In this document: positions 3,828 to 45,267 of the stretch, one piece after another | Numbering within the stretch: position 1 is the stretch's first letter | Layout of the letters: the number at the start of each line of letters is the position of its first letter | Assembly (NCBI GenBank): GCA_951406725.2 | Contig: OX597820.1 | Span: forward strand, 91,078,001 to 91,142,000 | DNA: 64,000 nucleotides | Source of the DNA: Octopus vulgaris | Lineage: Eukaryota | Reading direction: 5' to 3' | Program-made: the position numbers and the translations under genes | Notes under the pieces: model-generated | The model's database searches: none | Told to the model about the DNA's origin: nothing | What the model saw: the letters and a program-made list of their open reading frames with translations, nothing else

Positions 3828-3959
3828 TCTTGAGAACACATTCTTCATGGAAAATGGCAACTTGACATCTATATCTAACATACACGCTGTCCACTTTTAG
3901 TGGTCAGTCCTCTAAATTTTGTATATATATATATGTGTGTGTGTGTGACTGCGTGTATA

Positions 3960-4143
3960 TTGTTGGCGATTTTCTTTCTCCGTCTTCCCTTCTTTGGACT
4001 TCCTCTATATTTCTGACTAAGAGCTCCATTTAAAACGTGAAATCCTCCTTCTTTCTTTCCTTTCCTGGGCGTCCAATAAAACTGTACTTATTCCACATCC
4101 TCACGTTGTTGTGTTTTCTCTTTGTTCATGTTTGGATTAACTA
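3960..4143 (+). mobile_element. Penelope-like pLTR relic with decayed hammerhead (4009-4043)
   Basis: atttCTGACTA-A-GAGC..AAAACGTGaaat parallels the motif at 14585-14620; ends in (TA)n. Confidence 0.5.
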
Positions 4144-5483: not shown

Positions 5484-5499
5484 AATAACTATTTTCATA

Positions 5500-5940
5500 T
5501 GTCTGTGCACACCTTGAATGCAATGTATACCAGAAGGTTTGCAAATCTAATGGAGGCCTCAAAAGACATTTTAAGATCCACGCAGACCTCTAGCAGTTTA
5601 ACCTGTTTGTCGGCCCAGTATCCCACGATGCAGATACTATTGGATGGCATGGGCCTACCTCTCCAGGTGCCGAGCCACAAGCCAAATGACTTTTCCAAGT
5701 TAATTTTTGTTCCTGCTACTGCTTTGTAATCTTTTAGTGTCTCGCCAACCAAGTCAATATACCTGTGGCTCAATACTATGATGGTGACATCGTCCACATA
5801 TGCAAACACACCCCTCCTGCATCTCAGTTCCTGCAGGATGCCACACAGTGTTGCCAGCTTCTGCAGTAGTGGCTCTAGAGTCAATGCGTACAAAAGTGAC
5901 GAGAGGGTGCATCCTTGATGGACCGAACACGTGATGATAA
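5500..5940 (-). pseudogene. L1/Tx1-clade LINE reverse transcriptase fragment
   Basis: ORF 5495-5953 has SVHQGCTLSSLLYALTLEPL (QG.PLSP.LF motif), AYVDD, and GTKINLEKS.GLWLG. Confidence 0.85.
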
Positions 5941-7788
5941 ATGAGACAGACATACAGACAGACAGAGAGATAGCTGTTTTTATGTCTGTATTGATGCTAT
6001 GTTTTAATGATAGACTATATTTCCTGCTACAAAGTGTTCTTCATGATAATATTGATGATGTATATATTTTGTATCAATCATTACTTTAAGTAAATGTTTT
6101 GTGATAAAGTGAATTCTTATAATTTTGTGCTATTGTTATTAATATACAAAATCCTGATATATTTTAAATAAACAATACAAGAATGTTTCAAAAAGAATCA
6201 CAAGATTTGCACATTTTTTTTTTCTCCCGGAATAAGTGAAGGAGACTAAACTTATGCTGTACAGTGTGGAAACATGAGAATTATTACAGTTTGAAATTAA
6301 ATATCAAAATTTTTAAAAATCAATTTAAAAGAGACACTGATGTGTTTTCTCAGATACACAGCTCAAAATACACATAAAACTTTTGATAAATAGTCATTTA
6401 TATATATATATATATATATAAAATTTCTCACTTCCTTCATTTTTCTTTTCTTACCTCTCTCTTGCTCATATGATTTCTATTTCAAATGCGTGCATATTTG
6501 TGGAGATATATTCAAAATTGCATTCATACTTACACATTCGGAACTTTGACCTTCTTCTGCCTTGATAAGCATAACTCGAATATTATCACTTGAGCAATAT
6601 ATCTACATAAATCAAAGCTGCTAAATAATTCCCTTGTCTTTTGAGATTCTTTACATATTTTTATATTGATATTTTTAAAATTCTCACACCAAAATATTAC
6701 AAACTGGAAACATACATCCATATATACATCCAAATATTTCTATATGCACTTTTCTGCGCAAGAAAGCAAGTGTATACATACATAGCTTCATTGAAATGTA
6801 AAAAGAGTAAAAAAAAAAAAAACAGATTTGAATATCATAAATCTATATTTATGTAAACATACATACACCAAACTATGAATCATTCACTTTCCTTTTATAT
6901 ACATTTGTATTTCTACATTTAAAAGATATGTACTCAAAATTTAAAGTATATTAAAAGATAAATCCAAAAATAAAAATGTATAAAATTACAAACACATTTA
7001 TTTTAAGCCATAATACAATTTTAAATAATTTAATTCCAGTCTTGGGAAAAATACATCTGTCAGAAATTTAAGCTCTAATAAAACACAAGTAATATTTTAC
7101 ACTGCCATAAATTCAGGATTACCATTTCTTAACTATCAACACAATATTTTATATCTTTTCAGCTCATAAATTCTTCAACCTATTTCTCTTGTCATTGCTT
7201 TAAAACAGTGTTATTCATCATGTTCAAAATGTGGTCAAGATTTCCCTAAACTTAACCATTCCCATGGTATTAAGCACTTTCATGCCATACTCTGTGCTTC
7301 TGAGACTCATAATATTATTTATATTCCACCATTACAGTATAGAAAATGGTTGCCAGGAGCCCTTTCAACAATGTTTCACCTTTACTATTTAACTTCTCAG
7401 TATTGCTTGCACATAAAACACCTTTGTTAATGAATTTCAACATAGGCACAAGGGCTCAACTTTTGGTGAAGGGGTATACTCATTTAAGGTAAATCTCCAT
7501 CTCCTAAACTGGGTCCATATCATATAGATACTAAAAGTTTGAACGGCTTTACCAGCACTAGTACGGTTTGAAATCAGAGAGAAAAGAGCTGTAAGCAAAT
7601 ATTGTAGCATATTTTACTAGACACTACCATTTCTGTCACTATGTAATTTAATGTAAAATTTATTGCTGAAGTACACAATAATAACAACCTAGTTTGTTAA
7701 AATATGTTATGATATGCTTTACTCAAACTGATTCTACAATGTATGAAGTAAGTTGTTCAGAAATTATTATATTCTATGTAGTCAAATG

Positions 7789-11945: not shown

Positions 11946-12176
11946 GTGAGAATTTACCAAAAAACAAAAGATGGGTGTGTAAACAACAAACAGATATACT
12001 AGTTTAATGCTCGGGAAGTGATAAAGTCTTTTAAATTTCAAGCATACATTCTTCAACAGAAAGGAACACAGAAATAAACAGGGAGAGAAAATAGAAAAAG
12101 GTTTAGTTGCTAACGATCTATCATGGCGAATGCCGGACAGAGGTGTCACACAGGAGAGCCAGGAAGAAGGGGAAAT

Positions 12177-12177
<1 letters not shown>
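11946..12177 (-). mobile_element. Penelope-like pLTR, same family as 14491-14678; decayed hammerhead at 12028-12063
   Basis: Shares aacaaacagat..gctcggga..aagtctttta..cagaaag..gctaacgatctatcatgg with the 14.5 kb copy; (TA)n flanks. Confidence 0.7.
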
Positions 12178-12213
<36 letters not shown>

Positions 12214-12215
<2 letters not shown>

Positions 12216-12470
12216 TGGAGGTATGTGGCTCAGTGGTTAGGGTGTCAGCATCATGATCGTAACATTGTGGTTTCAATTCCTGGACCAGGCAACACGTTGT
12301 GTTCTTGAGCAAAACACTTCATTTCACATTGCTCCAGTCCACTTAGCTGGCAAAGATGAGTAACGCTGCGATAGACTGGCATCCTGCCCAGCTGGGGAAC
12401 ACATACATCATAGAAACCAGGAAACCAGGCCCATGAGCCTAGCTAGGCTTTAAAAAGGGTGCATTTATTA
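12214..12470 (+). mobile_element. SINE family B
   Basis: gtggaggtatgtggctcagtggttaggg...ggtttcaattcctgg...gttcttgagcaaaacac; (TTA)n tail. Confidence 0.85.
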
Positions 12471-13134
12471 TTATTATATGTTTGTGTGTGTGTCTGTGTT
12501 TACGTCCCCATAGCTTATGGTTGGGTAAAATTGAACAATAGAATAAGTACCAGGCTTTAAAAGAAAAACAGATACTGGAGTTGAATCATTTGACCAAAAT
12601 TCTTCAAGGTGGTGCCCCAGCATGGCCGCAGTCTAATGACTGAAACAAATAAAATAAATGCATGTGTGTGACTGTGTATGTATATACACTCACACACCTG
12701 TCTAAATGTGTATATGTGTGTGACTGAGTGTATGTCTGTGTATGTGTAATTATACATAATGAATATGAATCAAGTCATTGCTTATTCAAGTTACAGCCTT
12801 CATACAGGATTCGATGACAGCCTCTTCCTTATGAATTATAGATGGCAAAGTAACAAAAACAATAGGATATCAGAATAAGGAGACAGAATGATTGACAGAA
12901 GGGACCCAAATATCTATATTTTACATCTCTGTTTCCATCAATAAATATGACCATCAACAGTTTTACATCCTTTTTTATTTTCTTGCCTGAAATAAGCTGG
13001 GTAAGTTTTAACAGCACAGGCTGGGAAATTGCCAGGTGAGGATAAAAGGCTTGTAAGAGCTATGCAATGTATGTACAGAAATTCTCTCAGTTAGGTGAGA
13101 GTCAACAATAAATTCAATGAGGAAGTTAACATGT

Positions 13135-13470
13135 TCTTTTGACTGTGGTCATGCTGGAGCACCTCTTTCAATGGTGTTTTAGTTGAAGACATCTACCCCC
13201 AAGACTTACTCTTTGAAAGCCTAGTACTTATTCTATCAGTCCGGTCTCTTTCACCAAAGTTACGGGGATGTAAACACAGACACAAAGACACACACATGTA
13301 AATATATACATACAATAGCCTTCTTTCAGTTTCTGTCAACCAAATCCACTCACAAGGCTTTGGTCAGCCAGCGGCTGTTGTAGAAGACACTTGCTCAAAG
13401 TGCCATGCAGAGGGAGTGAACCCAGAACCATGTGATTGGGAAGCAAATTTCTTACCACGCAGTCATGCTT
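13135..13470 (-). mobile_element. SINE family A
   Basis: Reverse match to family consensus, with internal deletion. Confidence 0.85.
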
Positions 13471-13742
13471 GTCTCCATCAGGATTGCTGTGACTGGCAGC
13501 CTAGTGCTTATTATAATTCCCTTGGATATAACATAGGATTTTAAGACTGGCTTTACATAGGAACTTCTGTTTGTCAATGTCTTCATTTACATAGCTGAAT
13601 CTGTCAAAGAATTTATGAAGAAATTTCAAATGTAGACATAAAACCTAGAATCATTAGTAGACATAACACATGAAATGTTTTAGCAAGAAACAGGACAAGT
13701 ATCAAGTCATCTGAATAGTGGCCATGAACAATATGCACAAAG

Positions 13743-14149
13743 TACTCTTACTTGTTTCAGTCACTTGACTGTAGCCATGCTGGAGCACTACCTTTAGTCG
13801 AGCAAATCGACCCCAGGACTTATTCTTTGTAGACCAAGAACTTATTCTATCGATCTCTTTTGCCGAAACCGCTAAGTTACGGGGACGTAAATACACCAGT
13901 ATCAGTTGTCAAGCGATGCTAGGAGGGACAAACATAGACACACAAATACACACACACACATAAATGATATATATATACATATATATGACAGGCTTCTTAC
14001 AGTTTCCATCTACCAAATCCACTCACAAGGCTTTGGCCAGCCTGAGGCTATAGTAGAAGACACTTGCCCAAGGTGCCATGCAGTGGGATTGAACCTAGAA
14101 ACATGTGGTTGGTAAGCAAGTAACTTACCACACAGCCACTCCCGTGCCT
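13743..14149 (-). mobile_element. SINE family A, full length
   Basis: From tail (ctcttacttgtttcagtc) to head (cacagccactcccgtgcct). Confidence 0.92.
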
Positions 14150-14490
14150 ATCTGCAGTAAGAATGCTATACAGTGTATTTTATAAAATCTTTTCATGCAT
14201 CATAGGATGCAGTGAGATCACATGTATGTTGAGGAAAGAAGGATTTCATATGTTGCAGATATATAGGTGCATTAGCTGTTAGCACTCCCAATAAGTAATT
14301 TCAAATACTCAGAGCATCCTTGGATGTAAGTGATAGCTTCCTTTATCTTTGAGAGCAAATTCTTAGTGGTAGAAAGCATTTCAAAATCATTGCAGCCAAA
14401 TTAAGAAATGTGTGTAAAAATTTCAATGAGTTCTTACCCTGTTCTGGTAACAATATTTACAGTCATAAATATATATATACATATATATAT

Positions 14491-14678
14491 AGGGATAATT
14501 TACGAAAAAAACAACAAAAGACAAAGACAGGTGGTGTACAAAACAAACAGATGTATTAGTATAAGGCTCAGGAATAGAAAAAGTCTTTTACGTTTCGAGC
14601 CTACGCTCTTCTACAGAAAGGGACACAGAAAAAAGGAGAGAAAAAAAATGTGTGTAGTGGCTAACGATCTATCATGGT
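14491..14678 (-). mobile_element. Penelope-like pLTR with variant hammerhead
   Basis: Homologous to 11946-12177; bounded by TA repeats; immediately upstream of the Penelope ORF but unlike that element's own 3' pLTR. Confidence 0.7.
14585..14620 (-). ncRNA. Minimal type I hammerhead ribozyme, CUGUAGA core variant
   Basis: CUUU-CUGUAGA-A-GAGC-GUAG-GCUC-GAAA-CG-UA-AAAG: stems I and II perfect, stem III reduced to the ACGU palindrome. Confidence 0.7.
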
Positions 14679-14691
14679 GTATATATATATA

Positions 14692-16052
14692 TATGCCTCT
14701 ATCTCTAAAGAACTGCTAGATAAAGCCCTAATCTTCGCTAGTGATTTCATAGAAATTAGTACCAATGATAAGGATATAATCTTCCATGCTAGAAAGACAT
14801 TACTTTTCAGTGAGAATGCAAAGTGGGTAAAAAACACCGACACGGAGGGCGCTTTCGATGTGAGCATGGGTTCATATGATGGGGCAGGCATCTGTGATCT
14901 AATTGGACTCTTTCTCCTAGATACCTTCAGTAAGACATTCCCTAACGTACATTTTGCCATCTACAAAGATGATGCCCTCGCCTTAACAGCTAATACAAAT
15001 GGACCAGCACAAGATCGTTTTAGGAAGGATATTATCCAGTTAATGAAACACTTCGGACTTAGTATAACTATAGACACTAACCTGACGGTTGTCAATTTCT
15101 TAGACGTTTCCTTAGATCTTAATAATAATATTTATAAGCCTTATAGGAAGCCCAATGATAGACTAAGTTATATTAATGTAGGTTCATGCCATCCCCCTAT
15201 AGTATTCAAAAATTTAGTTAAAAATATTAGTAAGAGGATTTCTAGCCTCTCATCTAATGAGGACATCTTCAATAGCATTGCTCCAGTTTATAATAAAGCT
15301 TTAAAAGATAGTGGTTTTAGCGAAAAAATAAAATATACACCTATCACCAGCCCAACAATAAGGAAAAGGAATAATAGAAATAGGAAGGTCATCTGGTTTA
15401 CACCCCTTACTCACCCGAGGTGGCCTTCAATATAGGTAAATATTTCCTAGCACTGATAGATAGACATTTTCCAGTTAACCATGCTTATAGGAAACTCTTC
15501 AATAGACACAATTTAAAAATTAGTTTTAGTTCAACTACCAATTTTAAAAACATAATCAATCATAACATACAAAAAACACAAGAAGAAAACAGCTGTTCAT
15601 GCAGGAATAAAGAATTGTGCCCGCTAAATGGAGCTTGCATGTCCAAGACCATCATATATGAAGCTACCGTAAACTCTATAACCACTAAAGACACCGTTTC
15701 GACGAAGAAATACGTGGGCCTGACAGAGGGTAATTTCAAGGCCAGGTTCAATAACCACACTTTGAGCTTTAGGCACTGGAACAAAAGAAAAGCGACACAA
15801 TTATCCAATCATATTTGGTCTTTAAGAGATAAAGGTGTCGATTATAACATACAATGGAAGATTTTGGCCAGATGTAAGCCCTATACTAACGGCAGCGGAA
15901 GGTGCGGTTTATGCGACATGGAGAGATGGCTTATCTGGAAAAGCAGCTTAGACCCTACCACATGTCTAAATACAAGGACAGAGCTTTTCGGATCATGCCC
16001 ACATGTGACTAAATTTCTGTTACGTTTTTGGTCCCCTAAAGAAAACGGATAG
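14692..16052 (+). pseudogene. Penelope-like retroelement (Naiad-type) RT + zinc finger + GIY-YIG ORF, 5'-truncated, one frameshift at ~15405
   Basis: RT motifs FDVSMGSYDGAGICDLIG, YKDD, VNFLDV..YKPYRKP; one extra C restores WFTPPYS..NIGK; linker CSCRNKELCPLNGAC (CxCx5Cx5C); IIYEATV...KYVGLTEG.FK.RF.NH endonuclease; C-terminal CGLC and LNTRTEL...CPH. Confidence 0.95.
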
Positions 16053-16331
16053 AACATGCTTTCTGTGTTATGTCCCAAGAAGATTTTATATATTTTTATA
16101 TATTTTTATATATTTTTATGTATTTTTATATAATTTTTATGACGAAAAATGCGAGCGATGTATAAGTACGCAGGCAAAGCAGAGTTATAACAGAGTAATT
16201 TCCCTTCATTTTTAACGGTATTTTTTCATAACGTTTTCAAATAGCCAGATAACCGAAGAGATGGTGTTGTGGATTTCCACTTCGGCATCTGAAACTCAGA
16301 GTTTTATCTTGACTACCGAGTAATGTAACAT

Positions 16332-16336
<5 letters not shown>
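16053..16336 (+). mobile_element. 3' UTR / pLTR of the Penelope element, ending in (TA)n
   Basis: Contiguous with the ORF; 16245-16335 homologous to 63690-63785. Confidence 0.8.
16242..16315 (+). ncRNA. Type I hammerhead ribozyme, CCGAAGA core variant
   Basis: AGAUAA-CCGAAGA-GAUG..GUGGA-UU-UCCAC..CAUC-U-GAAA-CUC-A-GAG-UU-UUAUCU; stem I AGAUAA/UUAUCU; sense strand, in the pLTR. Confidence 0.75.
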
Positions 16337-16373
<37 letters not shown>

Positions 16374-45159: not shown

Positions 45160-45265
45160 TTACTAGCTACGGCGGTACATATTCTGAAATTGGAATGATA
45201 CAAAAAAAGATTAGCATGCCCCTGCACAAGGATGACACGCAAATTCGTGAAGCATTCCATATTTT
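45160..45265 (+). pseudogene. U6: U6 snRNA retropseudogene (full length)
   Basis: Aligns end to end with U6: 5' hairpin, aaattggaatgatac, agattagcatg, aaggatgacacgcaaattcgtgaagc.ttccatatttt; ACAGAGA box mutated to ACAAAAA. Confidence 0.93.
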
Positions 45266-45267
45266 CT

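What the first reader, a model, noticed from the sequence alone, without database searches (positions are those of the whole stretch)
12028..14620. Hammerhead family with recurrent A6-to-U core change (CUGUNGA) and almost no stem III
Seen: 14585-14620(-) reads CUUU CUGUAGA A GAGC guag GCUC GAAA CG UA AAAG. The independently decayed copy 12028-12063(-) reads CUUU CUGUUGA A..., so U at core position 6 is shared and probably ancestral to the family. The related 4009-4043 relic has CUGAC. Stem III is only the ACGU palindrome, which cannot fold intramolecularly and implies obligate dimer pairing. Established: A6 is nearly invariant, and an extra A after A9 is known from the CChMVd hammerhead. Inference: natural core variant, possibly undescribed.
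Basis: partly seen in the sequence, partly recalled or inferred. Interest (0 to 1): 0.7.

Follow-up and report, generated by a model that had tools for sequence, protein, structure and literature searches.

The report
Penelope retroelement hammerhead with U6 core
This is the tail of a very abundant, recently spreading jumping gene whose small hammerhead RNA motif has one normally fixed core letter changed (A to U) in about 96% of some 18,000 genome copies, so it is likely a slow natural variant of a known self-cutting RNA, but cutting is untested.

Summary
Both window motifs are 5'-truncated tails of a Penelope-like retroelement (RT, CxxxxCxxC linker, GIY-YIG).

U6 is the family state. There are 17,610 exact genome hits with U against 723 with any other letter. 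U6 is also in 54 of 56 copies picked by a flank alone, and in 27 of 27 motifs behind young ORF-bearing copies. Across subfamilies only positions 7 and 17 change. Intact 4.47-kb tandem units carry the motif at both ends.

The missing stem III, the ACGU palindrome, the extra A and the dimer model are the published minimal hammerhead of Penelope-like elements (PMC4209133), so they are not new. A6U was not found in my searches; A6C is known. The main survey paper (Lünse 2017) could not be read.

The 4009 relic belongs to a sister lineage with A6. That lineage has its own deviant subfamilies (C4, G17), which suggests loose catalytic constraint. Truncated copies do not reproducibly start at the predicted cut site.

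The best reading is a slow, dimer- and probably protein-assisted ribozyme (0.55); the main rival is a non-cutting fold kept for binding (0.3). The scan noted the same variant in another genome (e1-9559914).

The parts
14490..14680 (-). 5'-truncated 3' end (pseudo-LTR, about 190 bp) of a Penelope-like retroelement, subfamily with A7/A17, inserted in (TA)n
   Evidence: 40 scored genome matches at 90-100% identity, usually flanked by TA or similar microsatellites; longer copies of this subfamily run into the RT-GIY-YIG ORF in 3 of 30 loci
14585..14620 (-). Minimal type I hammerhead motif with U6 core. Stem I 14620-14617 / 14588-14585; core CUGUAGA 14616-14610 (U6 = 14613); extra A 14609; stem II 14608-14597; GAAA 14596-14593; ACGU palindrome 14593-14590; predicted cut between 14589 and 14588
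   Evidence: sequence; census; layout as in PMC4209133
11945..12176 (-). Second, older truncated copy of the same family (groups with the C7 subfamily); ends approximate
   Evidence: blastn 12126-11935, 77%; tree; 5' extension read by eye
12028..12063 (-). Decayed U6 motif (U6 = 12056); stem II and the CG palindrome are mutated
3951..4135 (+). Copy of the sister lineage (loop II UCC, A6, G17 subfamily); decayed motif at 4009-4043
   Evidence: 40 scored genome matches at 87-100%; relatives read CUGACGA A GAGC UCC GCUC GAAA CG UG; tree

Best explanation
The motif is the minimal type I hammerhead in the terminal repeat of a Penelope-like retroelement, with U fixed at core position 6 throughout one large lineage, and it likely still cuts slowly, as a dimer and probably with help from the element's own protein. 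Shown: full elements are 4.47-kb head-to-tail units with an intact 1,079-aa RT-GIY-YIG ORF and the motif at both ends; the window copies are 5'-truncated tails in TA repeats. Inferred: a read-through transcript would hold two motifs whose ACGU palindromes pair to form the missing stem III. A cut after position 17 would release unit-length RNA. U6 would lower the rate without stopping transposition.
For: U6 in 17,610 of 18,333 exact hits, 54 of 56 flank-picked copies and 27 of 27 motifs found behind 30 ORF-picked loci. Tandem units with the motif on both sides of the ORF in 6 of 8 loci; Pfam RVT_1 1.4e-7, GIY-YIG 0.0065. Between subfamily consensuses only 2 of 36 motif columns change, N7 and H17, the two free positions of a hammerhead; 38 of 141 flank columns change (p=0.006 at one clustering threshold). 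Position 17 alternates between A and U and is never G in a consensus. The fourth pair of stem I is C-G in this lineage and G-C, G-U or A-U in sister lineages, and is paired in 161 of 179 copies. The youngest subfamilies gained a fifth pair. G8 and G12 are kept. A Penelope hammerhead cleaves only when the element's protein is added (PMC11167929, passages). A natural A6C variant keeps low activity (PMC3088659).
Against: No cleavage evidence. 5'-truncated copies do not reproducibly start at the predicted cut: 6 of 29 in the window's subfamily, 10 of 15 in one younger group (p=0.0008) and 7 of 24 in its replicate, pooled 23 of 68 against 17 expected. The motif-versus-flank contrast falls to p=0.07 at two other thresholds. 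Stem II and loop II are as fixed as the catalytic letters, so conservation is not specific to catalysis. A6C can cut activity to 3.55e-6 per min in 0.3 mM Mg (PMC7151607), and no second mutation rescued the CUGA region except the C3-G8 swap (PMC9901934, passages). The sister lineage spread with C4 (64 of the first 100 listed) or G17 (6 of 100). Hammerhead mutants did not impair insertion in vitro (PMC11167929). In the window copy the predicted fold lacks stem II (pair probability 0.008; 0.90 in a young copy).
Confidence: 0.55

Rival explanations
1. The motif no longer cuts. It is kept as a folded, sequence-specific handle for the element's RT/endonuclease (binding, template choice or RNA stability), so catalytic letters can drift (U6 here; C4 and G17 in the sister lineage).
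For: Three different core deviations spread in related subfamilies of one genome. All 36 motif columns but two are fixed, loop II included. No reproducible truncation at the cut site. Cleavage is dispensable for insertion in vitro, and no RNA ends were seen at the cut in Anolis (PMC11167929).
Against: The two positions that vary are exactly those that catalysis tolerates, and position 17 stays non-G in this lineage. G8, G12 and the C3-G8 pair are kept.
Confidence: 0.3
2. The motif is an unselected vestige carried along by a successful master lineage, and U6 is a fixed disabling mutation.
For: The motif-versus-flank contrast is not significant at two of three thresholds (p=0.07). The subfamilies are closely related, so a 36-nt stretch may stay unchanged partly by chance.
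Against: N7 changed repeatedly and H17 at least twice while 34 other columns did not. Stem I covaries across lineages. The motif persists from the oldest sampled subfamily (about 14% from its consensus) to the youngest (about 2%).
Confidence: 0.12
3. The core is read in another register (U-U-G-A-A-G-A two letters on), which would keep A6 and make the variant an alignment error.
For: The U7 subfamilies contain UUGAAGA, and U3 cores are known in Penelope hammerheads (PMC4209133).
Against: That register puts the freely varying column (A, C, G or U) on the conserved U4, leaves U3 facing G8 without the known U3-A8 covariation, and breaks the perfect GAGC/GCUC stem II. The sister lineage aligns without gaps at the core and has A at this column.
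Confidence: 0.03

Closest known systems
[quoted passage not shown]
   Same: Position in both flanking repeats of an RT-EN ORF; short stem I; extra nucleotide between 9 and 10.1; G10.1-C11.1; GAAA-CG-UH with palindromic 15.2-16.2; U-rich 5' flank; mostly solo truncated copies; dimer model
   Different: Their consensus is CUGANGAH and every row I saw has A6; the only core change reported is U3-A8. Here U6 is fixed. No cephalopod appears in the part of the alignment read, and 'octopus' has 0 hits in the searchable file.
Small dimer-cleaving hammerheads of Penelope-like retrotransposons (Lünse, Weinberg, Breaker, RNA Biol 14:1499; not held; known only from the citation and summary in review PMC6765202, passages and section 11 part 2)
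   Same: Very short palindromic stem III, Penelope association, dimer cleavage
   Different: Unknown whether that survey lists A6U; this is the main gap in the novelty claim
Natural A6C hammerhead of phage Bcep176 (PMC3088659 section 8 and passages; PMC7151607 text parts 1-2 of 4)
   Same: Natural pyrimidine at core position 6
   Different: C rather than U; a single phage example, tested and slow (kobs below 0.1 per min; prefers Mn). Here about 20,000 genomic copies, no stem III, untested.
Poseidon hammerhead of Anolis carolinensis (PAc; PMC11167929, passages)
   Same: pLTR hammerhead of an EN+ Penelope-like element
   Different: Shown to be protein-assisted and dispensable for insertion in vitro; position 6 not stated in the passages read
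Neptune/Nematis clades of EN+ Penelope-like elements (features from PMC8557442, passages and section 11)
   Same: RT, then CX2-5CxxC linker, then C-terminal GIY-YIG; DKG motif; tandem arrays; microsatellite targets
   Different: Neptune versus Nematis not resolved here (no reference phylogeny)

Membership tests
min-HHR of Penelope-like elements | Lies in the repeats flanking an RT-GIY-YIG ORF, in sense | tested here: met
   27 of 30 ORF loci have it downstream in sense; both sides in 6 of 8 long loci; window subfamily linked in 3 of 30
min-HHR of Penelope-like elements | Core C3 U4 G5 A6 N7 G8 A9 | tested here: not met
   A6 replaced by U in 17,610 of 18,333 hits; the other letters are kept
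min-HHR of Penelope-like elements | G12 A13 A14 A15.1, U16.1, H17 | tested here: met
   position 17 is A in 43, U in 11, G in 2 and C in 1 of 57 placements (one of them the false placement)
min-HHR of Penelope-like elements | Extra nucleotide between 9 and 10.1; G10.1-C11.1 pair; stem II | tested here: met
   A inserted; GAGC/GCUC. No covariation in stem II; predicted fold holds in a young copy (0.90) but not in the window copy (0.008)
min-HHR of Penelope-like elements | Palindromic 15.2-16.2, no intramolecular stem III | tested here: met
   ACGU; the intermolecular duplex adds about -3 to -4 kcal/mol in the model
min-HHR of Penelope-like elements | Stem I of 3-5 pairs | tested here: met
   4-5 pairs; fourth pair C-G, G-C, G-U or A-U across lineages, paired in 161 of 179
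Hammerhead ribozyme (catalytic) | Site-specific self-cleavage after position 17 | not testable with these tools
   needs an assay; the indirect truncation test was inconclusive
Rfam hammerhead families | Covariance-model match | tested here: not met
   no hammerhead hit at E up to 10 in 14450-14750; minimal motifs may be missed regardless of position 6
EN+ Penelope-like element, Neptune/Nematis type | RT with C-terminal GIY-YIG, DKG motif and CX2-5CxxC linker | tested here: met
   RVT_1 1.4e-7, GIY-YIG 0.0065 (below Pfam cut-off); ADKG at 375, YIDD at 618, CSRPRCRTC at about 836
EN+ Penelope-like element, Neptune/Nematis type | Phylogenetic placement in Neptune or Nematis | not tested
   no reference sequences in hand

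The most novel reading that the evidence does not exclude
A working natural hammerhead without A6, made viable by the retroelement's protein or by a peripheral contact, in a genome where related Penelope lineages each spread with a different 'forbidden' core letter (U6, C4, G17). This would be a natural series of protein-rescued or rate-tuned ribozyme cores, and the most abundant Penelope hammerhead of this genome would be invisible to CUGANGA descriptors.
Probability: 0.3. Interest if true: 0.65.

Novelty: new variant of a known kind. Interest (0 to 1): 0.42.

Why it matters
Whether Penelope hammerheads have to cut is an open question. This genome gives a ready-made comparison: a young, intact, tandem element with U6, sister lineages with A6, C4 or G17 on the same stem II, and thousands of dated copies. 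If U6 cuts, the hammerhead core consensus is looser than mutagenesis suggests and search descriptors miss large families. A U6 pattern gives 23,132 hits here (control 8), against 20,363 for a somewhat looser CUGANGA pattern (control 711). If it does not cut, a successful element conserves a hammerhead fold for a non-catalytic job.

Tried and rejected
(1) Pile-up of 5' truncations at the cut site. One search seemed to show it (13-14 of 55), but its fixed spacing selects one phase of the TA repeat. Variable-gap searches gave A-run classes (4A/3A/2A/1A; 3A = cut site) of 9/6/7/7 (four tandem duplicates counted once; chi-square p=0.88), 4/10/0/1 (3 intact copies and 2 upstream starts dropped from 20) and 5/7/7/5 (not checked locus by locus). 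Comparable peaks occur at non-cut positions. Searches were confounded by CpG decay or U17 microhomology and were not used. Inconclusive.

(2) RNA evidence. No listed holder is on record as RNA, and only contigs could be laid. They showed no splice joints and no molecule ends. This is no evidence either way on expression, cutting or my idea that the pyrimidine tract is a 3' splice site.

(3) Whether A6 or C6 copies form their own clades in the oldest subfamily (U 78, C 15, A 6, G 1 of the first 100). The tree is star-like with no supported clade; unresolved.

(4) Other taxa. 6 metagenome hits: 5 look like chance in bacterial-type DNA and 1 (L129) is a single U6 min-HHR-like copy that may be a point mutant.

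(5) Pfam found nothing on two ORF fragments, and PDB nothing on the full ORF.

(6) The Fisher test (p about 4e-6) is not relied on: several subfamilies were picked by the core pattern and one group overlapped others.

(7) Literature searches for A6U: 'hammerhead'+'A6U' gave 2 unrelated listings, 'CUGUNGA' 0 and 'octopus' combinations nothing relevant.

Full report
Observation. The window is G000:C7:91078001-91142000 of a 2.8-Gb animal genome. Earlier scan notes call it octopus-like; I did not test that. The 14585-14620 motif is not chance. Rfam has no hammerhead match there.

Family census. CTGTNGAAGAGCGTAGGCTCGAAAC has 17,610 exact hits and the same pattern with A, C or G at position 6 has 723; reversed controls are 0. 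The non-U letters are mostly C (72 of the first 100), as expected for decay from U. Most fetched A6 copies fall as scattered tips inside U6 subfamilies; three sit together in the oldest subfamily without firm support. To avoid selecting on the core I took 70 copies by a 3' flank motif (20,661 genome hits): 56 keep the motif, 54 with U6 and 2 with A6, and N7 is A 20, U 23, G 5, C 8 (after dropping one false placement). Contigs from runs coded as four organisms show other letters at 8% or more at N7 and H17 but not at position 6 (contigs had to be at least 82% alike, and the codes may be close relatives).

What carries it. One fetched locus held an RT and GIY-YIG ORF upstream of the motif. Of 30 loci found with that protein, 27 have the motif in sense downstream, all CUGUUGA. 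Six of eight long loci show the motif on both sides of the ORF, in head-to-tail units of about 4.47 kb, and L252 holds three nearly identical motif regions. The 1,079-aa ORF matches RVT_1 (1.4e-7) and GIY-YIG (0.0065) and has DKG, YIDD and a CxxxxCxxC linker. These are the features of Neptune/Nematis-type Penelope-like elements (PMC8557442, passages). The window's own subfamily runs into the same ORF in 3 of 30 longer copies, up to 89% identical over 302 aa. So both window copies are 5'-truncated tails in TA repeats.

Known versus new. PMC4209133 (text parts 1-2, supplement part 2) defines minimal hammerheads in Penelope pLTRs: consensus CUGANGAH, an extra base between 9 and 10.1, G10.1-C11.1, palindromic 15.2-16.2, weak activity as dimers. 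A natural A6C is published and slow (PMC3088659 section 8; PMC7151607). I found no A6U. However, Lünse et al. 2017 is not held, supplement file 1 of PMC4209133 could not be searched, and only part 1 of 5 of a 2026 retrozyme preprint was read.

Is the motif under selection? The copies form a ladder of subfamilies from about 14% to about 2% divergence from their own consensus. Across subfamily consensuses only N7 and H17 change among 36 motif columns. With clusters built on flanks alone (147 copies), flank columns vary at 38 of 141 (p=0.006) or 27 of 141 (p=0.07 at two thresholds); the set still required a loose motif match. The fourth stem I pair covaries across lineages (C-G, G-C, G-U, A-U; 161 of 179 paired). 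That pattern fits a maintained hammerhead fold. It does not prove catalysis, because stem II and loop II are equally fixed.

Evidence against efficient cutting. The sister lineage that includes the 4009 relic (12,836 hits) has C4 in 64 and G17 in 6 of the first 100 listed (my count), so related elements spread with other core deviations. Mutagenesis found low activity for CUGA-region mutants with no rescue except the C3-G8 swap (PMC9901934, passages). A Poseidon hammerhead needs the element protein to cleave and is dispensable for insertion in vitro (PMC11167929, passages). My truncation test, prompted by an earlier scan note, first looked positive but that was a phase artefact. Unbiased searches gave 6 of 29, 10 of 15 and 7 of 24 starts at the cut site, pooled 23 of 68 against 17 expected (p about 0.06 by hand).

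Mechanism and verdict. Shown: the element, its tandem layout, the fixed U6 and the conserved fold. Inferred: two motifs on a read-through RNA would pair by ACGU (about -3 to -4 kcal/mol in the model) and cut slowly after position 17, probably with protein help (0.55). Rivals are a non-cutting binding fold (0.3), an unselected vestige (0.12) and a wrong register (0.03). It works like a Penelope minimal hammerhead, but fails the A6 feature, and cleavage is untested, so I file it as a new core variant of a known kind. The scan recorded what reads as the same variant in another genome (e1-9559914); that note is not independent support. Interest 0.42.

Noticed in passing
G000 genome-wide; e.g. L033:8412(+), L037:4710(-), L039:3693(-): The sister lineage (loop II UCC) is dominated by a U4C core, CCGACGA (64 of the first 100 of 12,836 hits); another subfamily has G at the cleavage position 17, including window 4009-4043.
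   Followed up: partly
window 14700-16340 (+): Fragment of a different Penelope-like element on the opposite strand, abutting the U6 copy: RT end, CxCX5C linker, GIY-YIG (Pfam 0.011), CxxC and CxH motifs as described for the Hydra clade. A hammerhead-like stretch beginning CCGAAGA lies near 16253-16300.
   Followed up: partly
about 20-30 nt downstream of the motif, all lineages: A CYGAGC word is kept in both lineages (92 of 123 U6 copies) and can pair with the 3' strand of stem II, giving an alternative fold that wins in the window copy; possible switch.
   Followed up: partly
UCC and UUU lineages, about 20 nt upstream of the core: A GGA in an otherwise pyrimidine tract (19 of 20 copies, against 1 of 123 in the U6 lineage) could pair with loop II as a pseudoknot; the U6 lineage lacks it.
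   Followed up: partly
oldest U6 subfamily (L132-L161, L370-L389): Position 6 is C in 15 and A in 6 of the first 100, above the family background; no supported clades.
   Followed up: partly
L129:1490-1540 (-), contig MDSQ01015757.1: Single minimal-hammerhead-like motif with CUGUGGA core and a different stem I in another organism's DNA; may be a point mutant.
   Followed up: no
window 45160-45266 (+): U6 snRNA-like copy (Rfam 80.6 bits, E 6.8e-19) with several substitutions, probably a pseudogene.
   Followed up: no
window 5495-6040 (-): Reverse-transcriptase fragment (Pfam RVT_1 3.7e-9).
   Followed up: no
G000 genome-wide, e.g. C1:286716-286748: A further abundant family with a canonical CUGAUGA core and longer stem II makes up about half of the first 100 listed CUGANGA hits; a natural positive control for assays.
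   Followed up: no
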